Source: Candidatus Parcubacteria bacterium
GTDB lineage: Bacteria; Patescibacteriota; Patescibacteriia; PEXW01
Direction of reading: 5' to 3'
NCBI GenBank assembly: GCA_003597955.1
Contig: QZJU01000020.1
Coordinates: forward strand, 13,459-77,458
Length of the DNA stretch: 64,000 nucleotides
A model generated the notes under the pieces. It searched no databases. It worked only from the letters and a program-made list of their open reading frames with translations, and was not told the origin of the DNA. A program made the translations under genes and the position numbers. Below are positions 1,826 to 47,690 of this stretch, in pieces (position 1 is the first letter of the stretch; each line of letters begins with the position of its first letter).

Positions 1826-1992
1826 CCTTAAAATAGCACGGTGTCGGTTGGGTTGTCGATTGCCGCATTGTTTAAGGGCGAAGGCTTAGGCTTGCGCGAA
1901 ACCGTATTACTACACCGATTCTGTTTCCCCCGCACTACCCTGCACCATTTCGGTACAGGATGGCGCTGGGTTTACCACAACTAAAACTAAAC

Positions 1993-2757: not shown

Positions 2758-2818
2758 GTTTTTGTACTTTTTATCTGTCATTGCGAGGAATCCCGCAGCG
2801 CGGGATGACGCGGCAATC

Positions 2819-3124
2819 TCATCTCTTCTTGTCCCGATCCTCACTCAAATCTTGCCATTTAGGATTAAGACTTTCAATTAACTCGATTTTCTTTTTTCTG
2901 GAACCAGCCTTGATTTGTTTCTCTCGGGCAATAGCATCCTGAATATACTGAAATTCTTCATAGTAAACTAGCTTATTAATATTGTATTTTTTGGTAAAGC
3001 CTTCGACTTGCTTATGCTTGTGTTGAAATACCCTACTTTCAAGACCCCCGGTAACGCCCGTATACAGAGTGGTATTGTACTTATTAGTCATAATATAAAC
3101 ATAAAACCGTTTTGGTCTTGGCAT
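2819..3124 (-). CDS. GIY-YIG nuclease family protein (UPF0213-type)
   Basis: YVYIMTN...LYTGVT...QHK...LVYYEEF...AIAREKQIK is a classic GIY-YIG domain. Length is 101 aa. Confidence 0.85.
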   Translation of the reverse strand: MPRPKRFYVYIMTNKYNTTLYTGVTGGLESRVFQHKHKQVEGFTKKYNINKLVYYEEFQYIQDAIAREKQIKAGSRKKKIELIESLNPKWQDLSEDRDKKR

Positions 3125-3183
3125 AGTTGGGTAAATAAGGAGATTGCTTCGCTACGCTCGCAATGACAATATGAATGCAAAAC

Positions 3184-6100
3184 CTACCCTCGCCAACGGT
3201 CTTCACAAATCTCCCGAAAATCGCAGGCTGCGCAAGTGAATTTTGAGGGTGTGGCCGCAAAATCACTTTGTAAAATTTCTGAAATTGTCTCGGAAATTTC
3301 CGCTTTGGTTTTCTCAATGGCCTTTTTATCCACCTTATAGGAAAAAGGCTTCTCCGTAGCCAAGTAAATATAGGTGAGTTTTACCGGATTTAATTTCAAA
3401 GCCTCTCTGGCGGCAATGGCATAGATGTGTAATTGCTTCAGTTCCGCGTCTTTTTCTTCTTCCGGCGGCCTTTCCGAAGTTTTATAATCTATAATTTCAA
3501 TGCCGCCAGCCGTGGGATCAATCCGATCGATTTTACCTTTGATTTTTTGATTCCCGATGCTGATGGTGAATCCTTTTTCCAAATCCAGGGGTCTTGGCCA
3601 AGGCTTTGGTAAGTTTTCATAAAACCGTTTTAAATACTCGATCCCCCGCTTTTTGTAGTCGTTTTTCTGGCGGACATCCTCATACCAGGAGTCAATCCAG
3701 GCAGCCTGGTAAAGCTGCTGCAATTCCGCCCAGGTGACCAGAGGTTCGGAATTTTCGGTTTTTTTGCCAATCGGGTTGCCGAAAAGATCCTGCTGATTGG
3801 CATTGCTCCGCTCCCTGACTAATTTAAAGAAATTCAAAAGCGTAGTGTGGATGGTCTGCCCAAAACTAAATGTCGCCCTGCCTTGAACCGGAATTTTCAA
3901 AAGGTGCGCGTACTTGTACTGCTTGGGACATTTTTCAAATGCCTTTAACTGCGTGAAACTGAAATACGGCGGCAAGGCTTTCTTGAGTAAAGCTAGATTG
4001 TTTTCTTTTTGCAATGGCCCGGTTTCCAATTTTTTTAAAAAGCTGGATTTTAATTTATGAACTCTGGATTTTAAGTCGAGTTCGAGTATAAACCTGGACG
4101 GTTTTTTCTTCCGTGTTCCGCCATAATCTTCAGCGGCGGTGAAAAATATGCCCCGCTTCGCCCGGGTAATGCCCACATACAGCAACCGCCTTTCCTCCTG
4201 CAAATGCCAATCCCCTTCCGGCAATCTTTCTTTTACTAACTCGTCCGGCAATTCGATTGGCTCCCGTCTTTCAATGGTCGGGAACCTTTTGTCGACCAAA
4301 TTAACTATGAAGACATAAGCGAATTCCAAGCCTTTGGCTCCGTGGACAGTCATAATTTTCACGGCTTCCGGACCTTGTTCCCATTCGGGCGGGCGCAAAC
4401 TGCCGCTGTCACCGGCTTCCTGGGCAAAAGCCAACTCTCTTAAAAAATTGCCAACCGTCGGTTCAGCGTGGCGGATTTGAAAATTATGAAAAATCTGAAA
4501 AAGCTGGTTGACATAATTAACCTGTTCCAAATGCTCCGCATCGGTTTTTTTTATTACTTCCTTAAGCAAGCCCGAGTCTTCCAAAAACCTTAAAGTGACC
4601 TCCCCAACTGGGTGGATCCTGGCTAATTGCGTATGCCGGTCTAGCCAGCTCAACAACCTCTCAATCGCAATTACGGTTTCGGGCTTTAACCCGCTTAGGA
4701 CGCGGACATTTCGGAGTATTTCATAAAGCGACTTTGTCTCCCGCCGGGCAATAGACATCAAAGTCATGATATCCGGCAAGGAGATTTTTAAAAGCGGCAA
4801 GGTTAAGATCCGATAAAGGCTCGGGGTCTCGTGGTAATTATCCAGAAGTTTTAAATAATTCAAAATATCCAAAATAATCGGCTGGCGATACAAGCCGGCA
4901 GAAGCCAAAAATTGAAATGGGATTTTCAGGTTTTTTAATTTCTGAATGAAAGGCGCGGCATAGTCGTTGGCCCGGACCAAAATCGCAAAATCGTTGTAGG
5001 AAACCTTGCCCTTGCCGGCTTTTCTGACAGCTAGGATTTTCTCAATGACCGCCAAAACTTCCTGTTCCATCGCCGGCATAAGCCAATACTCGATTTCGCC
5101 ACTGGCTTTGGTTTGGGCGACTAATTTCTTGTTGATGACCGGTTTTTTTGAATTTGGCGCTTGGTTTTGGCCGTTAAGCTGAACCTCCAGTCGATTGGGA
5201 TTGTTGTTTTGTATGAATGTGTAGGCCAGATCCAGGATATTCTGGCAGCTTCGGTAATTTTCCGTCAAAACGACTTCCGTGGTTTCCGGAAAATCTTTTT
5301 TAAAGGCTAAAATGTTCGCCACGGACGCGCCTCGAAATTTATATATGCTTTGATCATCGTCGCCCACAACCGTCAAATTGTTGTTCGGCTTAGCCAAAAG
5401 TTTAACCAGTTCGTATTGGGCCCAGTTGGTGTCTTGAAATTCGTCGACTAAAATATATTCGAATTGCTGACGGAATTTATTTAGGATCTTTGGCCGGTTT
5501 TGGAAAAGATACAAAGTCTGGGTGATCAGATCGCCGAAGTCCAACGCGCCTTTTTCAAAAAGCAACTGCTGGTAGGTGTGATAGGCATTAGCGACCTCGT
5601 TAACGCGCTCGGCTTCAACTATCTGATCGGCTTCGGCTTCGGTTTTTCTTTTTCGACCATGAACTTCATCCAAATCCAATTTTAATTTTTCCGCGTACTG
5701 CAAATATTCTTCCGGCCGAATAGCCTCGTCTTTGCAGCGCGAGAAATGCTTGACCAGGCTGGCGACAAAGCGGGTCGGATTGCCTAAAGGCCGATAATAA
5801 TTCAGATCAAAACGCTCCAAATTCTCCCGCATTAAAATTGCTTGGTCGGTTTCATCCAATAGTTTAAAGTCTGGATTTAAGCCGATGTCTAAAGCATGAT
5901 CCCGCAAAATTCTTTCGCAAAAGGCATGAAATGTGGAAACCCACAAATCCACGTAGCCCATGGGTAGAAGCTTGTCCACCCGCTCTTCCATTTCGCCGGC
6001 GGCTTTGTCCGTAAAAGTTAAGGCCAAAATATGATCCGGTTGAACCTTTCGCTCGGCAATCAGCCAAGCGATGCGCTGAGTGATGACCGTGGTTTTGCCT

Positions 6101-6189: not shown

Positions 6190-6322
6190 GAAGGTATTTT
6201 ATAACAGATCAGAAATAAATAAAAAATCGCCACGATTATTTCCGGCTGCGTTTTTTTGCGCTTGCTCCCGCACCACCCTGTACCCGAGTGCAACGAGTGG
6301 TACGGTGCTGGTGTGGAGCTGA

Positions 6323-10775: not shown

Positions 10776-10868
10776 ATTTTTTTCGGTTTAAAGTTAAGGA
10801 TTTAAAAATATCAAAAGTTTTATAAAAAGAAAAGCCGCTAGTCCTTTTAACTAACGGCCAAATTTTAT

Positions 10869-10970
10869 CCCGCACCACTTTCCAGCAAAACGTTGTTATA
10901 CACTTTAAGATATTCATCCGGGCAAATATCTTCAAAATTAATTCGAGATTTAAGTGAAAAGTGGTGCGGG
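10869..10970. repeat. MITE-like palindromic element A (102 bp) with 15-18 bp terminal inverted repeats cccgcaccactttccagc / gaaaagtggtgcggg
   Basis: Perfect inverted termini. It shares its terminal sequence with elements B and C but has a different interior. It lies 4 nt downstream of the stop of the 10974..11516 gene. Confidence 0.7.
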
Positions 10971-10973
10971 ATT

Positions 10974-11516
10974 TCATGGTGAAAGATTGTAGACTTCCTC
11001 CGGGGTTTTGGCGCGGATGAAATAGGTCCGCATTTTTATCTGGTAGTCAACGTGCAAAAGCGGCACAATCCGCTTTCGATCCCAGCCGGTTTTTTCGGCG
11101 ATCAACCTAGCTGTCGTAACCGCGTTGGCCACGACTTGAAAAATATCCATGTGAACTTCGCTGGCCATGCCGCACGGCCAATGAGCCAACAGAAAAATCG
11201 TCGGGATCTTTTTTAGGCCGCGAGTTTTTACCAAACCCGAAAGCAATTGTTCATGGGCCCGAAATTCCCGCGGGATCGGGATCTCCGGGTTCAAACGCAA
11301 GGGTCCGCCATTGTAGGCTTTAAGATGTATTCGAGGGTTTGGTAATTGCCGCCTGACAAAATCAAACATATCACTGGAGCGGTCACAATCACCGCACATA
11401 ACTAAAATTGTTCCGTTGTAAGCCGCCGCCTGAAGCTTGTCTGCTTTCACATTGGCAATGACGCCAGCAGTTTGCCACCAACTAATCGTTGACTTCTCAT
11501 TGTCGGAAATAACCAC
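10974..11516 (-). CDS. Hypothetical protein, second beta-carbonic-anhydrase-like paralog
   Basis: CGDCDRSSDMFDFVRR and LAHWPCGMAS motifs. 180 aa. Flanked by repeat elements A and B. Confidence 0.35.
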   Translation of the reverse strand: MVISDNEKSTISWWQTAGVIANVKADKLQAAAYNGTILVMCGDCDRSSDMFDFVRRQLPNPRIHLKAYNGGPLRLNPEIPIPREFRAHEQLLSGLVKTRGLKKIPTIFLLAHWPCGMASEVHMDIFQVVANAVTTARLIAEKTGWDRKRIVPLLHVDYQIKMRTYFIRAKTPEEVYNLSP

Positions 11517-11597
11517 GCTTTCCTCCGTGAAAAAATGATTTTTAAAAAACGATGTTGATTTTGAAAAACCAGTTTATCAGAAATCCAAAAAAAGTCA

Positions 11598-11702
11598 ACC
11601 CCGAACCACTTTCCAAATAAAACCTTAAGTTTAGTGTAAGGTTATTTGCCTAATGAACATCTTGGTACTAAGTGTTGGCGTTTTGCTGGAAAGTGGTGCG
11701 GG
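11598..11702. repeat. MITE-like element B (105 bp), homologous to element C, TIR ccccgaaccactttccaa / ctggaaagtggtgcgggg
   Basis: About 85% identical to the element at 22292..22396 over its full length (read by eye). It has inverted termini. Confidence 0.75.
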
Positions 11703-11740
11703 GTCAAGGCCAACTAAATCTGACTTGAAAATTCTTTGAC

Positions 11741-22263: not shown

Positions 22264-22291
22264 AATGCTGATATTTTAGCATAGACCTTGA

Positions 22292-22396
22292 CCCCGCACC
22301 ACTTTCCAAAATAAACTTTAAGTTTTTTGTAAGGCTATTTACCTAATAAACATATTAGTGATAAGTGTTGGCGTTTTGCTGGAAAGTGGTGCGGGG
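22292..22396. repeat. MITE-like element C (105 bp), homolog of element B
   Basis: TIR ccccgcaccactttccaaa / tttgctggaaagtggtgcgggg. The interior is near-identical to B. It sits in the divergent promoter region between the EamA and NUDIX genes. Confidence 0.75.
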
Positions 22397-22507
22397 TTGA
22401 CAAAAACCAAAAAATCCTTTAATATCATCAGCTAAGTCTGCTCAAAAATTCTTTTAAAATTTGAGCCTAATAAACCGATCATTACATAAACCACTGGAGG
22501 TTTTCGA

Positions 22508-23194
22508 ATGGATGTTGAGACAAAATGGGGTTTCCCAGTAGTCAATGCGGAAAACATTTTCCAATATTTGGAAAGTGTTAACATTAAGCCTTGGCCTCAA
22601 ATCGAGCCAACGGTCTCACTCGATGAATACCTAAAGCGAGACTTGACAGATGATCAAAAAGGCGAGCTCCGCTTCGCGCCCAAAGCAGAAGTAATGTTCT
22701 TAGAACAGCCGAATGGCCAACCTTACACGGCCTTTCGTTCCACCCAAAAACCTTGGGCCACGACCTTCTGCCTATTGCCCGGCGACCTAATCCCGATCGT
22801 GGCTGAATGGAAGCACGGCGCCGAATGCATCTCTTTGGCTCCGCCTTCAGGCTCGCTTGGCAAAGCAGACAATGGCTCCATGAAAAATTGCGCCAAACGG
22901 GAATTTGAAGAAGAAACCGGTATTGAGCTATCGGGGATTATTCCTTTAAGCCAGGCTGGGATCGCTGTCAACTGTCGAAGCTCCGGCCAGAGATTCTTCC
23001 CCCACCTTGGCATCGCAGCCACGCCAATTTCCCCAGGCCCAACTAAACTTGACCAAACCGAAAACATCAGCTTAGTTTTAATACCCCTGAAGGATTGGCT
23101 AATGCTGATTGAAGAGGGCGGAGTGGTTGAAAATTGCTCAATCTCAACGACCCTTATGGCTCTTCAGTACTTACAGCGCCTCGAGCTGAAGTAA
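22508..23194 (+). CDS. NUDIX hydrolase with an N-terminal extension
   Basis: Nudix box G...AKREFEEETGIEL. 228 aa. Confidence 0.6.
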   Translation: MDVETKWGFPVVNAENIFQYLESVNIKPWPQIEPTVSLDEYLKRDLTDDQKGELRFAPKAEVMFLEQPNGQPYTAFRSTQKPWATTFCLLPGDLIPIVAEWKHGAECISLAPPSGSLGKADNGSMKNCAKREFEEETGIELSGIIPLSQAGIAVNCRSSGQRFFPHLGIAATPISPGPTKLDQTENISLVLIPLKDWLMLIEEGGVVENCSISTTLMALQYLQRLELK

Positions 23195-23206
23195 TTGCTA
23201 TTTTTA

Positions 23207-23240
23207 AAAACCCTGTTCATGATACAGGGTTTTTTATTTT
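23207..23240 (+). terminator. Rho-independent terminator after the NUDIX gene
   Basis: Hairpin aaccctgt-tcatga-tacagggtt followed by a T6 run. Confidence 0.6.
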
Positions 23241-23863
23241 AACATCTTATAAACAATGGTGTTTAAATATTGATATGGAGCCCTTGAAAATTTTTCATTT
23301 AAATCAGTTGCCAGTGGGTTATTTTGAACATATTTAATGGCCATTTTCACAGATTCATCAGAATTTAAGATTTTAGCGTGAAATCGCGCTTGCCATGAAA
23401 AATTATCTATTTTATAAATAACCCTTAATTGTCTCACAAAATAGGATTTAATGCCGTGCATCAGGTCAGAAATTGTAAAAACCTTCGAGTTTATTAAATT
23501 GTCTAACCTGCTCTTCTGGAACCCAGCGCGGGCGGCTCTGCCCGCGCCTGGATGCAACAAAATTTTTCCAATCGCAGGCACAGCGGCCTGCGCTCGAGAC
23601 AAATTAATATTTGATAATTTCGTGGCCGCCCGCGCTGGGTTAGTTTTTAATGATCTTAGATCTTGCCAAACAATCAAATGAACATGATCCGGCATTATGC
23701 AATAAGCAATTAACAAGAATCCTTTTTTCATGCTAGTGCCAATAATAATTTTGCTCAATAAATCCGCATATTTATCATGAATAAAAAACGCTTTATCGCC
23801 TTTAATATTTGTGGTGATAAAGTAAGGAAATTCTCCCTGGTGGATTCGCCGTTGAGTCATCAA
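23234..23863 (-). mobile_element. REP-associated tyrosine transposase (RAYT; IS200/IS605 TnpA-like HUH enzyme) gene
   Basis: FPYFITTNIKGDKAFF, the HUH motif CIMPDHVHLIV, and a C-terminal SWQARFHAKILNSDESVKMAIKYVQNNPL that matches the RAYT WQ..YYEHII...NP signature. The ORF contains a 42-aa insertion that is GC-rich and flanked by inverted repeats. Confidence 0.72.
23520..23641. repeat. GC-rich palindromic insertion inside the RAYT ORF (17-bp perfect inverted repeats aacccagcgcgggcggc / gccgcccgcgctgggtt)
   Basis: Seen directly in the sequence. It keeps the reading frame and encodes NPARAATK...GAGRAARAGF. Confidence 0.7.
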
Positions 23864-25213: not shown

Positions 25214-25302
25214 GGTGCTTTTAGCTTACGATTTTTTGCTCAAAAACACAAGAAAAAAGCGGACCTTAATTGATCCGCTTTTAAAAACTAAAGAACGCTT
25301 TA

Positions 25303-25376
25303 TGCGGGCAGGTGGAATTGCACCACCGACGTTCGGGTTAATAATCCCCGACATTCTACTCCTGAGTTATACCCGC
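25303..25376 (-). pseudogene. tRNA-like element (possible degenerate tRNA)
   Basis: It has a 7-bp acceptor stem GCGGGTA/TGCCCGC, a perfect T-arm GGTGG-TGCAATT-CCACC, and U8, A14, G15 and G18. The D-stem cannot pair canonically and the anticodon stem has a mismatch. The putative anticodon would be UAU. Confidence 0.25.
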
Positions 25377-25606
25377 AATTTTTATAGCCCCGGGCTGGAT
25401 TTGTCCCGCCATAGAGGCGGGATGCCGCCGACTTTTGTTGACTTCAATAGATGGCGGCAAACCAGCAACCTTCGGTAAATTCCTGCACATGCCCATTAAT
25501 ACTGAGGCTCCCTGCCTGTCGCCAGGCAGGTACCGACTAAGCTACCGGGGTGACTTTTTTGCGAATTTTCACCTTAGCATACGCGCCGTTTTCAAGTCAA
25601 AAAACT

Positions 25607-31530: not shown

Positions 31531-31780
31531 AACCTCCTGTTTTAAAAAGTGCGGAATTTTTTGCTTTACTGACTTAATTTTAAAACAAGTCGGGTATAAA
31601 AAAACCGTTTGTCAACCCCGCATGCCTTTTTAGAGCGGGGTGGTTTTAGGTGTAGCGCTCAGTATTGTTGTGGTTATTGGTGGTGGTTTAAAGCTTAATT
31701 TAAAAACCACATCCCCAAAAACGATACCGATATCTATACCCAAAGCCTCTAACTACAACCATTTATCCGCTGGCAAGCCT

Positions 31781-41518: not shown

Positions 41519-42421
41519 ATGTCACAGAAGACATTGATCCCGTCCAGAGTCACCCGTGATTCCAAGAAGGGCCAGAGAATTCTGGACCTCGTGGGTGCCG
41601 TCATCAACAAGCTTGGCCTTGATGAAGACCAGGCCCAGCGGGTAATCGAGAATCCCGAATTCCCGCCAGCTGTCGAAGCCGTATTGCGAACCTACGCGAT
41701 TCCGAATGAGTACGCCGATGAAGAGGTCTCCTCGAATTATGGCTACTTGTCCGGCTATCGCGAGGCAGCACCGATCGCTGACCAGATGCGCATCTTGCGC
41801 GAATACTTCCCGAACCTTGGTGATCCGGATGAAAGCTTCGCCAAGCAGGAACGTCCGGCAAACAGCGAAGGGTACTTCTGTATCCCGCGCTGGAAGCTGA
41901 TCGCCCCGACCTACAACGAGGCTGTCGAGAGGGTGCTCGAAGCGCTCAACAAACAACGCAAGGGCAAGTTCGTCAACTACCACAAAGGTGAACTCGGCCC
42001 GGATCGTTTGAGGCAGGGCGAACGGAAGCGTCTCGCTTTCGAGCGGCTCACCGTAGAGCAGGGACGTGACGTCCTTGTGGTGGCTGCCCAGTTCGGCTTC
42101 CAGCATCACGGACGTTCGGTTCGCAGAGCTCGTGCAGTCATGCCTGGCATCGAGTTCGGCCTTGGTGCCTTCGAGATCGGCATCATGCTGCTGACGCATG
42201 CGATCCGTCTCCAGCATCTCGACGACCTCTGGATCGACTGCCCTGGTGATGAGTACTCACCTGACGCTGGTGGCCGCTTCGGCGACGCCCCGTACTTCTA
42301 CTTCGGCAATGGCAAGCTCGAGTTCGGCACGGACCTCGTCGGCAATGCCAGCGGCCGCTGTGGGTCGGCGTCCGGGTTTTTACCCGCCGAAGCAACTGCG
42401 AAGGCGGGCTCTCCGCAGTAG
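41519..42421 (+). CDS. Hypothetical protein encoded by a GC-rich (about 60%) foreign-looking segment
   Basis: The ORF is open from 41345. The start was chosen at the ATG 9 nt after an AGGAGG RBS. Codon third positions are G/C-rich, unlike the rest of the window. No recognised domain. Confidence 0.5.
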   Translation: MSQKTLIPSRVTRDSKKGQRILDLVGAVINKLGLDEDQAQRVIENPEFPPAVEAVLRTYAIPNEYADEEVSSNYGYLSGYREAAPIADQMRILREYFPNLGDPDESFAKQERPANSEGYFCIPRWKLIAPTYNEAVERVLEALNKQRKGKFVNYHKGELGPDRLRQGERKRLAFERLTVEQGRDVLVVAAQFGFQHHGRSVRRARAVMPGIEFGLGAFEIGIMLLTHAIRLQHLDDLWIDCPGDEYSPDAGGRFGDAPYFYFGNGKLEFGTDLVGNASGRCGSASGFLPAEATAKAGSPQ

Positions 42422-42444
42422 AGTTGAGAATTGAACATTGGTTC

Positions 42445-42473
42445 CCCGCACCAGAACGAAGTTCGGTGCGGGG
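42445..42473. repeat. REP-like hairpin ccccgcaccagaacgaagttcggtgcgggg
   Basis: Perfect 10-bp stem. It belongs to the 'ccccgcacca' palindrome family and lies right after the GC-rich gene. Confidence 0.65.
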
Positions 42474-43662: not shown

Positions 43663-44069
43663 GGGGATGTTCATAAGTTGATAGTTTGCTTTGACAATTA
43701 GCCTGCGGACCGCCTTTTTCGGGAATGGCGTAAAACTTTCTGAAAATTAGACAAATGCCAATTCATTTGTCAGCAAAGTGAAGACTGCATTGGCCAAAAC
43801 CTTTGCCGTCCCAGCTTTCGCTCCGGTTGTTGCTTAAAAACCAATAACCCATTCGCCCCGCAGCCTGATGCGGGATTCGCGAGTGTTAAATTTCAGGCTG
43901 GATATTTTTCACCGCGCGCTGAAAAATATTGAGAAACTTGCGCGCTTTGGCGTTTTGCGATCTTGGTTGTTCCCTGCGCAAAATGTCGAAAACCCTTGAA
44001 CAACCTATGTCCGAAGAAAGTTAATTGCCGGTAAACTAGACAGGGGTGCAAGACCCCTCATCTCCACCA
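43663..44069 (+). ncRNA. ssrA: tmRNA (ssrA)
   Basis: The 5' GGGGATG pairs with the 3' CATCTCC-A-CCA, giving a 7-bp acceptor stem with a G3·U70 wobble (the alanine identity element). A T-arm AGGGG-TGCAAGA-CCCCT directly precedes it. A D-analog UUCAUAAGUUGAUA follows the 5' strand. It sits immediately downstream of smpB. A candidate tag ORF ends ...FAPVVA-TAA. Confidence 0.72.
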
Positions 44070-44156: not shown

Positions 44157-44200
44157 GGTTCATGCCCTGTACCCGAGCTTCGCGGGTGGTACAGGGAAAG
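44157..44200. repeat. Palindromic hairpin ccctgtacccgagcttcgcgggtggtacaggg (family 2, related to 6270..6312)
   Basis: Seen directly. It has nested inverted repeats. It lies between the tmRNA 3' end and the GIY-YIG gene. Confidence 0.6.
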
Positions 44201-44218
44201 AGTAAAAAGGGACAAACT

Positions 44219-44485
44219 ATGAACTTCAAATTTGTTTACATTTTGCAAAGCTTAAAAGACCACCGGCTCTATATTGGATTTACCGAAAAGCTCAAAACTC
44301 GGATGAAGGCACATGCAGCCGGTCAAAATCAATCTACCAAAAACCGAAGACCATTGAAATTAATTTATTTCGAAGGCTTTTTATCCGAAATTGATGCTCG
44401 AAGACGAGAAAAGTACTTCAAGTCCACCAAGGGGAAAACCACTCTCAAAATAATGCTTAAAGATCATTTTAGAACCCAAGAGTAA
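44219..44485 (+). CDS. GIY-YIG nuclease family protein (second copy)
   Basis: FKFVYILQS...RLYIGFTEKLKTRMKAHAAG...LIYFEGF...ARRREKYFKS. An AAGGGA RBS precedes the ATG at 44219. Confidence 0.8.
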   Translation: MNFKFVYILQSLKDHRLYIGFTEKLKTRMKAHAAGQNQSTKNRRPLKLIYFEGFLSEIDARRREKYFKSTKGKTTLKIMLKDHFRTQE

Positions 44486-45136: not shown

Positions 45137-45196
45137 AGCGCTCCCCGGGCTAACTATCTGGAGTTTCAACTCTTGTCGGCTTTCGGGGCGCGGAAC

Positions 45197-45234
45197 CCCG
45201 CACCATCACACAAAATTCGGGACTGGTGCGTGGG
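45197..45234. repeat. REP-like hairpin ccccgcaccatcacacaaaattcgggactggtgcgtggg
   Basis: 'ccccgcacca' family. It lies between infC and rpmI. Confidence 0.55.
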
Positions 45235-47651: not shown

Positions 47652-47690
47652 CCCCGCACCATTCCTCGCTAACGCTCGGATGGTACGGGG
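47652..47690. repeat. REP-like imperfect hairpin ccccgcaccattcc...ggatggtacgggg
   Basis: 'ccccgcacca' family. It lies just upstream of tRNA-Asp. Confidence 0.5.

What the first reader, a model, noticed from the sequence alone, without database searches (positions are those of the whole stretch)
22292..23863. RAYT gene co-resident with a family of 'ccccgcacca' REP-like palindromes and 105-bp MITE-like derivatives
The ORF at 23234..23863 has the hallmarks of a REP-associated tyrosine transposase (HUH motif HVHLIV, WQ...NP C-terminal signature). The same window contains at least ten copies of a palindromic motif built on ccccgcacca/tggtgcgggg. Short hairpins lie at 1938..1959, 31616..31640, 42445..42473, 45197..45234 and 47652..47690, and a hybrid copy lies at 6270..6312. 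Three 102-105 bp elements (10869..10970, 11598..11702, 22292..22396) use the same sequence as 18-22 bp terminal inverted repeats. All copies are intergenic and often sit exactly at gene ends. This matches the RAYT-REP/BIME relationship known from Proteobacteria. I do not recall a described REP/RAYT system in a CPR-like genome, and this repeat family looks lineage-specific.
Basis: partly seen in the sequence, partly recalled or inferred. Interest (0 to 1): 0.75.

Follow-up and report, generated by a model that had tools for sequence, protein, structure and literature searches.

The report
GIY-YIG-linked mini-transposon repeats, not RAYT-REP
The repeats are real, but they are not the partners of the neighbouring RAYT-like gene; they are gene-less copies of a tiny mobile element widespread in CPR/Patescibacteria, whose full form carries only a GIY-YIG nuclease gene and inserts at promoter -35 boxes, pilin leader codons and rRNA helices.

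Summary
The window has a RAYT-like Y1 gene (23234-23863, minus strand), three ~105-bp elements with terminal inverted repeats (TIRs), and about six short hairpins built on CCCCGCACCA (7 exact half-sites against 0.1 expected).

The RAYT-REP reading does not hold:
- The RAYT gene has no flanking REPs or TIRs.
- It sits in conserved synteny (GlyRS-RAYT-EamA) with a 52%-identical ortholog whose 20-kb surroundings contain no repeat.
- RAYT homologs occur in only 3 of 120 repeat-bearing loci.

The repeat is not lineage-specific. An exact-pattern scan hit its 120-contig limit across many metagenomes. Only the termini (A)CCCCGCACCACTTT are conserved.

Evidence for insertion:
- 65 of 130 copies have 4-nt direct repeats (TTGA or TTTA), against 11.9 expected.
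- One filled/empty paralog pair proves insertion with a target-site duplication (TSD).
- The target consensus is GGs|TTKA|C. In practice this means -35 boxes (both TTGA-flanked window copies), the G|FTLIE codons of type IV pilins, and rRNA helices.

In about 22 independent cases the same co-varying TIRs tightly bound a 283-359 bp unit encoding an 81-96 aa Slx1/UPF0213-type GIY-YIG nuclease. This ORF is often fused in frame, through the TIR (K-S-G-A-G), to a pilin.

Best reading: these are MITE-like derivatives of GIY-YIG TIR elements. That the nuclease is the mobilising enzyme is inferred, not shown.

The parts
22292..22396 (.). Full MITE-like copy (105 bp). TIR CCCCGCACCACTTTCCA / TGGAAAGTGGTGCGGGG. 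Flanked by the direct repeat TTGA (22288-22291 and 22397-22400).
   Evidence: (z -6.1)
22397..22425 (+). Sigma-70-like promoter TTGACA-17-TAATAT abutting the element end, upstream of the NUDIX-like gene. Its TTGA is the duplicated target.
   Evidence: 10/12 match. Family-wide, 25 of 32 TTGAC flanks have a -10 box against 10.7% of controls.
11599..11703 (.). Full MITE-like copy (105 bp, 88% identical to 22292-22396). Flanked by the direct repeat TCAA (11595-11598 and 11704-11707).
   Evidence: (z -4.9)
11571..11598 (-). Promoter-like TTGACT-16-TAAACT (with TG) abutting the element, reading towards ORF 10974-11516(-).
10868..10971 (.). Third full copy, diverged and inverted relative to the other two. 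Flanks TTTA / TTTC (a decayed duplication). It ends 2 nt from the stop codon of ORF 10974-11516.
   Evidence: (z -5.6)
42444..42473 (.). Short hairpin CCCCGCACC-N12-GGTGCGGGG, probably a collapsed or decayed copy. Intergenic, after the ORF that ends at 42421.
   Evidence: z -5.5. Short TIR-TIR forms also occur in L023 and L088.
45196..45234 (.). Short imperfect hairpin of the same motif, between infC and rpmI/rplT.
   Evidence: (z -1.65)
47652..47690 (.). Short imperfect hairpin of the same motif, 19 nt upstream of tRNA-Asp.
   Evidence: z -1.76
31616..31640 (.). Short hairpin CCCCGC-N13-GCGGGG, preceded by TCAA as in the family.
   Evidence: z -3.1
6266..6318 (.). Nested/hybrid hairpin. Outer arms are of the CCCGCACCA type. 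The inner hairpin is CCCTGTACC...GGTAC, the type also found upstream of the GIY-YIG gene at 44165.
   Evidence: (z -1.1)
1928..1970 (.). Degenerate nested hairpin (CCCCGCACTA + CCCTGCACC...GGTACAGG), just downstream of the M23 peptidase gene.
   Evidence: (z -1.05)
23234..23863 (-). RAYT-like Y1 HUH protein (209 aa; HVH at residues 60-62, Tyr178 in KYVQNNP). A syntenic chromosomal gene that is not part of the repeat system.
23520..23641 (.). In-frame, GC-rich, 122-bp palindromic insert inside the RAYT gene (AACCCAGCGCGGGCGGC ... GCCGCCCGCGCTGGGTT). Its arms are conserved at DNA level in the ortholog.
   Evidence: (z -5.2)
22508..23194 (+). NUDIX-like gene lying between the RAYT and EamA genes. 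Both it and the element are absent at this position in the orthologous locus L121.
44165..44485 (+). Hairpin CCCTGTACCCGAGCTTCGCGGGTGGTACAGGG (44165-44196) followed by a stand-alone 88-aa GIY-YIG gene (44219-44485). The protein is 49% identical to a TIR-bounded GIY-YIG (the L066 unit).
2776..3168 (-). Second GIY-YIG gene (2819-3124, 101 aa), bounded by a different 12-bp TIR: TGTCATTGCGAG / CTCGCAATGACA.

Best explanation
The CCCCGCACCA repeats are MITE-like, ORF-less copies, some decayed to short hairpins. They belong to a family of very small TIR-bounded mobile elements spread across CPR/Patescibacteria.

Shown:
- Only the ~14-17 bp termini (A)CCCCGCACCACTTT are conserved. The AT-rich interior differs between lineages.
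- Copies are flanked by 4-bp direct repeats, and one filled/empty pair proves insertion with duplication.
- The pre-insertion site is GGs|TTKA|C. This explains why copies abut real -35 boxes (TTGACA, as at 22397 and 11598 here), the GGN-TTT-ACN codons of the pilin G|FTLIE junction, and rRNA helix tips.
- The only coding partner that is repeatedly and tightly bounded by the same, co-varying TIRs is an 81-96 aa GIY-YIG nuclease of the Slx1/UPF0213 branch, giving 283-359 bp units.
- These units show the same insertion signature as the short copies. They also show a deletion series down towards MITE size.

Inferred:
- The GIY-YIG nuclease recognises the TIR hairpin or cruciform, or the GGG|TTKA junction, and makes the staggered breaks that move both the full units and, in trans, the ORF-less copies.
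- The GC-rich stem makes insertions tolerable at RNA level. In rRNA it would behave like an intervening sequence (IVS). In pilin genes the TIR supplies a K-S-G-A-G leader end.

The neighbouring RAYT-like gene is an unrelated, vertically inherited chromosomal gene.
For: Distribution:
- The family is widespread, and only its termini are conserved.

Evidence for insertion:
- 65 of 130 elements have identical 4-nt flanks, against 11.9 +/- 3.0 after shuffling partners (maximum 25 in 5000). Inverted matches are not enriched.
- L026 3380-3620 carries the element plus a second TAAA. Its paralog L026 1850-2040 is uninterrupted.
- rRNA insertions in L063 have empty counterparts in L141, L147 and L085.
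- The target logo is G-G-S|T-T-K-A|C.

Target contexts:
- 25 of 32 TTGAC flanks have a -10 box at 16-18 nt, against 10.7% of 2427 control TTGAC sites.
- 19 termini abut FTLIE codons.

Link to the GIY-YIG gene:
- GIY-YIG ORFs are bounded by the TIRs in L023, L052, L063, L066, L085 and L113. L052 shows TTGA|...|TTGACT-17-TATAAT.
- In an independent GTDB scan, about 16 of 25 GIY genes are TIR-bounded with spans of 284-359 bp. The TIR in L134 and L085 is identical over 14 nt to the window TIR.
- GIY protein identity correlates with TIR identity (Mantel r = 0.53, p = 2e-4).
- The proteins match Pfam GIY-YIG at E 1e-16 to 1e-19. The nearest solved structures are UPF0213 1zg2/1ywl and SLX1. The Tyr, Tyr/Gly, Arg, His and Glu columns expected of the GIY-YIG motifs are invariant; calling them catalytic rests on my knowledge of I-TevI.
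- GIY genes occur in 13 of 120 repeat loci, against 3 for RAYT.
- Truncated GIY remnants serve as pilin leaders in P0085, P0092, P0113 and P0116.

Published context:
Against: - No nuclease activity or transposition has been shown. A stand-alone 85-aa GIY-YIG domain has no precedent as a transposase.
- Neither GIY-YIG gene in this window is bounded by the CCCCGCACCA TIR. The cognate full unit of this genome was not seen in the ~81 kb available.
- MITE interiors show no detectable similarity to GIY units beyond the TIR, so derivation rests on the shared TIR, TSD and target, and on the deletion series seen in pilin fusions.
- The two near-identical window copies lie in opposite orientation relative to TTGAC. 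This argues against a simple cohesive-end cut-and-ligate model.
- Half of the copies lack a perfect TSD.
- Whole-genome co-occurrence of the TIR family with GIY or with RAYT could not be computed.
Confidence: 0.62

Rival explanations
1. RAYT-REP/REPIN system. The RAYT-like Y1 transposase at 23234-23863 recognises the CCCCGCACCA hairpins as single-stranded DNA and disseminates them. The 105-bp units would be REPIN-like doublets.
For: - A RAYT-like gene is present, with HUH and Tyr intact.
- It behaves like a domesticated single-copy gene in conserved synteny, as RAYTs do.
- The repeats are GC-rich, hairpin-forming and intergenic, with doublets of about 100 bp.
- 3 RAYT-like ORFs in 752 kb of repeat loci is slightly above my rough expectation of about 0.75, which assumes one RAYT per ~1 Mb CPR genome.
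Against: - The gene is not flanked by REPs or TIRs.
- There is no GTAG or CGTC tag (definition from PMC3733652).
- 4-bp TSDs and an empty/filled pair are present. IS200/IS605-type Y1 transposition does not make TSDs (established knowledge).
- There are no copies within 20 kb of the ortholog P0002 or of P0013.
- The RAYT subfamily is small: 83 representatives at E<=1e-10 among 1.84 billion. The repeat, in contrast, saturates a 120-row scan.
- There is no RAYT in the 25 GIY loci.
- The single arms are not themselves palindromes.
Confidence: 0.06
2. Ordinary MITEs mobilised in trans by an unseen conventional transposase (for example a DDE enzyme giving 4-bp duplications). The GIY-YIG genes would be passengers, or homing-endonuclease genes that invaded the loop of pre-existing hairpin elements.
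For: - TIR plus a 4-bp TSD plus both orientations is the classical signature of DDE cut-and-paste.
- Homing endonuclease genes commonly colonise other selfish elements.
- GIY genes also occur between elements or next to single hairpins (L111, window 44165).
Against: - No TIR pair at IS-like spacing and no transposase ORF was seen in about 1 Mb of repeat-rich loci. This sample is biased towards short contigs.
- The GIY ORFs fill the TIR-bounded unit almost completely. The ATG lies 11-47 nt from the element end, and the stop is at or inside the TIR.
- GIY and TIR sequences co-vary.
- Units with quite different TIRs all carry the same kind of ORF.
Confidence: 0.2
3. Non-mobile host elements: conserved regulatory or processing hairpins (terminators, insulators, RNase III sites or protein-binding sites) maintained next to promoters and pilin genes.
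For: - The elements are regularly placed at -35 boxes and gene ends.
- They form strong stems.
- The TIR is translated as a functional-looking K-S-G-A-G prepilin leader end.
Against: - A filled/empty paralog pair shows target duplication.
- TSD enrichment is strong.
- Copies occur inside 16S and 23S rRNA genes at several sites, with empty counterparts.
- The orthologous site in L121 lacks the element.
- Multi-copy families with near-identical interiors occur within single metagenomes.
Confidence: 0.05

Closest known systems
REP/REPIN-RAYT systems (REPtrons) of Proteobacteria
   Same: Short, GC-rich, hairpin-forming intergenic repeats, with doublets of about 100 bp. A RAYT-like HUH/Tyr gene is present as a syntenic single-copy gene.
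   Different: There is no GTAG or CGTC tag. The RAYT gene is not flanked by the repeats. 4-bp target duplications are present. The single arms are not palindromes. The repeat spans many CPR lineages rather than one. The recurrent coding partner is a GIY-YIG nuclease.
Bacterial MITEs such as Neisseria Correia elements
   Same: Elements of about 100-150 bp with TIRs and short TSDs. They are multi-copy and intergenic, sit at promoters, and fold into long hairpins when transcribed.
   Different: The TSD is TTKA, inside a GGsTTKAC target. No DDE parent was found. The TIR-bounded parent-like units encode only a minimal GIY-YIG domain.
CPR rRNA insertion sequences encoding GIY-YIG proteins (Brown 2015, from my own knowledge, not read here; Tsurumaki 2024, PMC11270868) and classical 23S rRNA intervening sequences
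   Same: Relatives of the window repeats, with and without the GIY ORF, sit inside 16S and 23S genes (L063, L085, L140, L141, L031). They are neither group I nor group II introns. One sits at a helix tip, like an IVS.
   Different: In text searches of the paper, 'inverted repeat', 'palindrom' and 'hairpin' each gave no match. The window copies are not in rRNA at all.
GIY-YIG homing endonucleases (I-TevI, Seg proteins)
   Same: A selfish GIY-YIG nuclease gene that inserts into conserved sequences, with insertions that are phenotypically tolerated.
   Different: The nuclease belongs to the Slx1/UPF0213 minimal-domain branch and has no DNA-binding extension. The unit is bounded by TIRs with TSDs. 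It is found at many unrelated sites and spawns ORF-less copies.
Rickettsia palindromic elements (RPEs)
   Same: Palindromic repeats that can sit in frame inside protein-coding genes.
   Different: Here the in-frame use is specific. The TIR encodes the end of a prepilin leader, and the GIY-YIG domain can replace the leader.

Membership tests
REP-RAYT (REPtron) | The protein is a RAYT: HUH motif, catalytic Tyr, and a score above the RAYT model cut-off. | tested here: inconclusive
   HVH and Tyr178 are present. NCBIfam REP_Tyr_transpos gives 68.4 bits, or 73.4 without the insert, against a cut-off of 80, over model positions 3-142 of 146. Relatives P0014 (88.3) and P0017 (115) pass. IS200 gives 16-18 bits against a cut-off of 55.
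REP-RAYT (REPtron) | The RAYT gene is flanked by its REPs (or by long TIRs). | tested here: not met
   The gene starts 4-7 bp after the glyS stop. Downstream there is only a bidirectional terminator at 23206-23234. The nearest repeat is 838 bp away, beyond another gene. No flanking palindromes occur in L121 or L124. The definition is taken from PMC3733652.
REP-RAYT (REPtron) | The REP carries a conserved GTAG (or CGTC) tetranucleotide at one end. | tested here: not met
   The flanks are TCAA/TTGA/TTTA-type direct repeats, with no consistent GTAG or CGTC.
REP-RAYT (REPtron) | Y1 (IS200/IS605-type) insertion leaves no target-site duplication. | tested here: not met
   65 of 130 copies have 4-nt direct repeats against 11.9 expected. 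An empty/filled pair shows a TAAA duplication.
REP-RAYT (REPtron) | The repeat family co-occurs with its cognate RAYT lineage. | tested here: not met
   RAYT-like ORFs occur in 3 of 120 repeat loci and in none of the 25 GIY loci. No repeats occur around P0002 or P0013. A whole-genome test was not possible.
MITE | Small, ORF-less and multi-copy, with terminal inverted repeats. | tested here: met
   Units are 97-120 bp with 14-17 bp TIRs. There are four full copies in about 81 kb of this genome and at least 120 contigs elsewhere.
MITE | Target-site duplication and an empty-site counterpart. | tested here: met
   Window copies: TTGA/TTGA, TCAA/TCAA and TTTA/TTTC.
MITE | A longer coding element shares the same TIRs (the parent element). 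| tested here: met
   283-359 bp units share the same TIRs and encode a GIY-YIG nuclease. That this protein mobilises them is not tested.
GIY-YIG nuclease, Slx1/UPF0213 branch | The GIY-YIG domain scores above the Pfam cut-off with catalytic residues conserved. | tested here: met
   PF01541 gives 48-68 bits against a cut-off of 22.6. Invariant columns are Y5, Y16, G18, R26, H30 and E62. The best PDB matches are 1zg2, 1ywl and SLX1.
rRNA intervening sequence (IVS) | A hairpin insert at an rRNA helix tip, removed by RNase III. | not testable with these tools
   Relatives lie inside 23S and 16S genes, one at a helix tip. The window copies are not in rRNA, and processing cannot be assessed from sequence.
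Homing endonuclease gene | Spread by cleavage of the cognate empty allele and recombinational repair, giving the same site in different genomes and no TSD. | tested here: inconclusive
   An identical 23S site is occupied in L141 and L145-147. However, many unrelated sites and TSDs are seen elsewhere. Tsurumaki 2024 also judged the GIY-YIG insertions to lie outside homing.

The most novel reading that the evidence does not exclude
These repeats and their 283-359 bp parents would be a previously undescribed class of prokaryotic transposable element. Its only enzyme would be a minimal Slx1/UPF0213-type GIY-YIG nuclease acting on its own TIR hairpin or junction. It would insert with a 4-bp duplication at GGsTTKAC. 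It would make itself harmless, and get itself expressed, in three ways: by regenerating -35 boxes, by serving as the cleavable leader of type IV prepilins (GIY-YIG-KSGAG|FTLIE), and by forming excisable stems in rRNA.
Probability: 0.4. Interest if true: 0.9.

Novelty: new variant of a known kind. Interest (0 to 1): 0.78.

Why it matters
- **Annotation.** A gene labelled 'REP element-mobilizing transposase RayT' in Patescibacteria is not evidence of a REP system.
- **CPR rRNA insertions.** The work ties three things to one TIR-defined element family with a definable target: the unexplained short non-intron insertions, the GIY-YIG ORFs in CPR rRNA genes, and abundant intergenic repeats in these tiny genomes.
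- **Transposon classification.** If the GIY-YIG domain is the mobilising enzyme, this would add a new enzyme class to prokaryotic DNA transposons.
- **A new way for selfish genes to be tolerated.** The element would replace a cleavable prepilin leader and duplicate -35 boxes. Both ideas are directly testable in vitro with an 85-aa protein and short oligonucleotides.

Tried and rejected
- **RAYT linkage.** I ran tblastn of the RAYT family against all repeat loci. I also made motif and inverted-repeat scans around two RAYT homologs. Neither gave an association.
- **Conventional autonomous element.** I looked for TIR pairs at 0.5-3 kb in about 1 Mb of loci. Only ~300-bp GIY units turned up.
- **tRNA origin.** CCCCGCACCA resembles an acceptor 3' end plus ACCA. 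ARAGORN and Rfam found only two tRNAs and the tmRNA, and none coincides with a repeat, so I dropped the idea.
- **Known RNA family.** No Rfam hit lies at any repeat.
- **Other GC-rich REP families in the window.** Only 11 perfect GC-rich 8-bp hairpins exist, and they form no family.
- **Is the RAYT-internal palindrome a dispersed repeat?** There is no other copy in the window or the loci except in the ortholog.
- **Cohesive-end 'cut and religate' model.** It fits the TSD, but the two near-identical window copies lie in opposite orientation relative to TTGAC.
- **Technical failures.** The 10-sequence GIY alignment was too divergent for the locus scan. ORF 736-1206 is not on record.
- **Literature.** Searches for GIY-YIG with TIR/MITE/CPR/pilin terms found no description of this element. 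The exception is the rRNA-insertion survey.
Full report
**1. Observation**

The window comes from a Candidatus Parcubacteria MAG. The RAYT-like protein equals P0001, locus tag C4546_, on a 126-kb contig.

The motif CCCCGCACCA occurs 7 times exactly against 0.10 expected. At one mismatch or fewer it occurs 18 times against 4.05 expected.

Three units are homologous end to end: 10868-10971, 11599-11703 and 22292-22396. The last two are 88% identical, and the first is inverted and more diverged. They fold as long hairpins with z = -4.9 to -6.1.

Six shorter hairpins share only the outer ~10 nt. Two of them (1928, 6266) are nested with a second hairpin type, CCCTGYACC...GGTAC. A fourth full copy lies just beyond the window end (L151 5168-5272).

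The paired copies are intergenic. Two unpaired half-sites (34487, 34912) lie inside ORFs.

**2. The RAYT-like gene**

- ORF 23234-23863(-) matches Pfam Y1_Tnp at 40 bits (cut-off 23).
- Its best NCBIfam model is REP_Tyr_transpos, at 68.4 bits. With the insert removed the score is 73.4 bits over model positions 3-142 of 146. The cut-off is 80.
- IS200 scores only 16-18 bits against a cut-off of 55.
- HVH and a Tyr in KYVQNNP align with E. coli TnpA-REP, PDB 4er8.
- The subfamily is small: 83 representatives at E<=1e-10 among 1.84 billion.
- Members have a variable insert after the HUH strand.
- A 52%-identical ortholog (P0002) lies in the same neighbourhood (GlyRS, RAYT, EamA, DUF6390, NiFe hydrogenase, ABC transporter) on 494-618 kb contigs. 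The gene is therefore vertically inherited and not part of an IS.
- It is not flanked by REPs or TIRs. It abuts glyS upstream and an ordinary terminator downstream.
- In the ortholog, EamA follows the RAYT gene directly. The NUDIX-like gene and the repeat between RAYT and EamA in the window are absent there.

**3. The repeat is not lineage-specific**

I scanned for ACCACTTT-N62-92-AAAGTGGTGCGGG, a pattern that matches all three window copies.

The elements are 97-120 bp. Only the termini (A)[C/T]CCCGCACCACTTT are shared, and the interiors fall into unrelated subfamilies. Arms change together, for example CCCAGCACC/GGTGCTGGG and CCCCCACC/GGTGGGGG. MITE-size copies also occur in named Saccharibacteria, Buchananbacteria, Terrybacteria and other Patescibacteria genomes.

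**4. Insertion signature**

- Of 130 distinct elements, 65 have identical 4-nt flanks. These are TTGA/TCAA, TAAA/TTTA and a few TATA.
- After shuffling partners the expectation is 11.9 +/- 3.0 (maximum 25 in 5000). Inverted matches are not enriched.
- A filled/empty pair of pilin paralogs in L026 shows the element plus a second TAAA.
- Insertions in the 23S rRNA region of L063 have uninterrupted counterparts in L141, L147 and L085.
- The reconstructed target is G-G-S|T-T-K-A|C.

**5. Where the elements land**

*Promoters.* 25 of 32 distinct TTGAC flanks have a -10 box at 16-18 nt, against 10.7% of 2427 control TTGAC sites. In the window, 22396|TTGACA-17-TAATAT precedes the NUDIX-like gene. On the minus strand, 11599|TTGACT-16-TAAACT precedes ORF 10974-11516. 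Because TTGA is duplicated, the host -35 box survives the insertion.

*Pilins.* 19 termini abut codons for F-T-L-I-E, the mature N-terminus of type IV pilins. The TIR reads K-S-G-A-G in frame and supplies the Gly at -1.

*rRNA.* Copies lie inside 16S and 23S genes (L031, L063, L085, L140, L141). One sits at a helix tip like a classical IVS.

**6. The coding partner**

In L063, L066 and L085 the same TIRs bound 289-317 bp units encoding 86-87 aa GIY-YIG proteins. L023, L052 and L113 add co-varying TIR variants. L052 has the full signature ggccTTGA|...|TTGACT-17-TATAAT.

An independent scan of GTDB genomes with a GIY alignment gave 25 loci, nearly all Patescibacteria. About 16 of these GIY genes are tightly bounded by 14-22 bp TIRs, with spans of 284-359 bp. 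L134 (Saccharibacteria) and L085 share 14 nt of TIR with the window copies.

The ORF almost fills the unit. The ATG lies 11-47 nt from the element end, and the stop is at or within the TIR.

GIY identity and TIR identity correlate (Mantel r = 0.53, p = 2e-4).

The proteins belong to the Slx1/UPF0213 branch; the best PDB matches are 1zg2, 1ywl and SLX1. The Tyr, Tyr/Gly, Arg, His and Glu columns expected of the GIY-YIG motifs are invariant; that these are the catalytic residues is from my knowledge of I-TevI.

GIY genes occur in 13 of 120 repeat loci, against 3 for RAYT. The window has two GIY-YIG genes. One (44219-44485) lies behind a CCCTGTACC hairpin. The other (2819-3124) sits within a different 12-bp TIR. 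Neither is bounded by the CCCCGCACCA TIR.

**7. GIY-YIG::pilin fusions and decay**

In seven genomes the GIY ORF has no stop before the right TIR. It continues through K-S-G-A-G into FTL(I/V)E... pilins.

A protein search found at least 15 distinct 190-254 aa fusion proteins, several of them annotated with both PF01541 and the N_methyl or T2SSG pilin domains. It also found about 70 stand-alone GIY proteins. P0085, P0092, P0113 and P0116 are pilins whose leaders are truncated GIY remnants. Together they form a deletion series towards MITE size.

**8. Literature**

A survey of CPR rRNA insertions reports GIY-YIG ORFs in inserts that are neither group I nor group II introns. [quoted passage not shown] In my text search of that paper, 'inverted repeat', 'palindrom' and 'hairpin' each gave no match (PMC11270868).

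The 2006 GIY-YIG phylogenomics paper treats the prokaryotic Slx1-like branch as vertically inherited (PMC1564403).

REPs are defined by GTAG or CGTC tags, and RAYT genes by flanking REPs or TIRs (PMC3733652).

I found no paper joining GIY-YIG with pilins, or with TIR/MITE elements in CPR.

**9. Interpretation**

Shown: the window repeats are members of a widespread TIR+TSD element family with a defined target. The family's only recurrent, TIR-bounded ORF is a GIY-YIG nuclease.

Inferred: this nuclease mobilises the full and ORF-less copies, and the stem makes insertions tolerable at the RNA and protein-leader level.

The RAYT-REP reading fails four defining tests. A conventional transposase acting in trans remains the main rival.

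Caveats:
- There are no functional data.
- The cognate GIY unit of this genome was not seen.
- No whole-genome census was possible.
- The two near-identical window copies lie in opposite orientation relative to TTGAC, which constrains mechanistic models.

Noticed in passing
window 23520-23641; L121 10220-10341: The RAYT gene carries an in-frame 122-bp GC-rich palindrome just after the HUH strand. A 27-nt stretch of one arm differs at only 1 position between the window and the ortholog, whose protein is only 52% identical. Other homologs carry different palindromic inserts at the same loop (for example P0013, L124 10310-10341).
   Followed up: partly
L132 3001-3819, L134 3001-3633, L135 3001-3600, L136 72-1250, L129 1586-2260, L127 2861-5809, L023 838-1701; proteins P0018-P0069: GIY-YIG nuclease ORFs are fused in frame, through the TIR-encoded K-S-G-A-G, to type IV pilin-like proteins. 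An 80-aa nuclease domain therefore stands where the prepilin leader should be, with Gly at -1. Truncated GIY remnants serve as leaders in P0085, P0092, P0113 and P0116.
   Followed up: partly
L063 2848-6503; L085 4747-5828; L141 1825-5117; L140 2838-5489; L031 5270-8236: Relatives of the window repeat, with and without the GIY-YIG ORF, interrupt 16S and 23S rRNA genes. L063 holds three such inserts plus a group I intron (5482-5711).
   Followed up: partly
window 2776-3168: A second GIY-YIG gene (2819-3124, minus strand) is bounded by a different TIR: TGTCATTGCGAG...CTCGCAATGACA, with a second partial inverted repeat GCGGCAATCTC / GAGATTGC. This suggests that TIR-bounded GIY-YIG units exist in more than one TIR family.
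   Followed up: no
window 10868-11703: Two repeat copies in inverted orientation bracket ORF 10974-11516(-) (180 aa, no Pfam or NCBIfam hit), giving a composite-transposon-like arrangement. The same layout is present in a second assembly (L153, GCA_020061045.1).
   Followed up: partly
L124 10001-11097: In another Patescibacteria contig, a RAYT homolog (P0013) is followed within about 220 bp by a GIY-YIG gene (10855-11097). No TIR was found around that GIY gene.
   Followed up: no
window 25302-25377: ARAGORN calls a tRNA-Ile with anticodon TAT. Its Rfam tRNA score is low (38.9 bits).
   Followed up: no
window 43663-44069 and 44165-44485: The tmRNA gene is followed directly by the hairpin and the stand-alone GIY-YIG gene.
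   Followed up: no
window 22288-22317: The left TTGA duplicate plus the first two element bases give TTGACC-18-TAAACT. This is a promoter-like site reading into the element.
   Followed up: no
L151 2242-5550: Just beyond the window end lies a run of eight small same-strand ORFs (65-137 aa, no Pfam hit on record). The fourth repeat copy sits between two of them.
   Followed up: no
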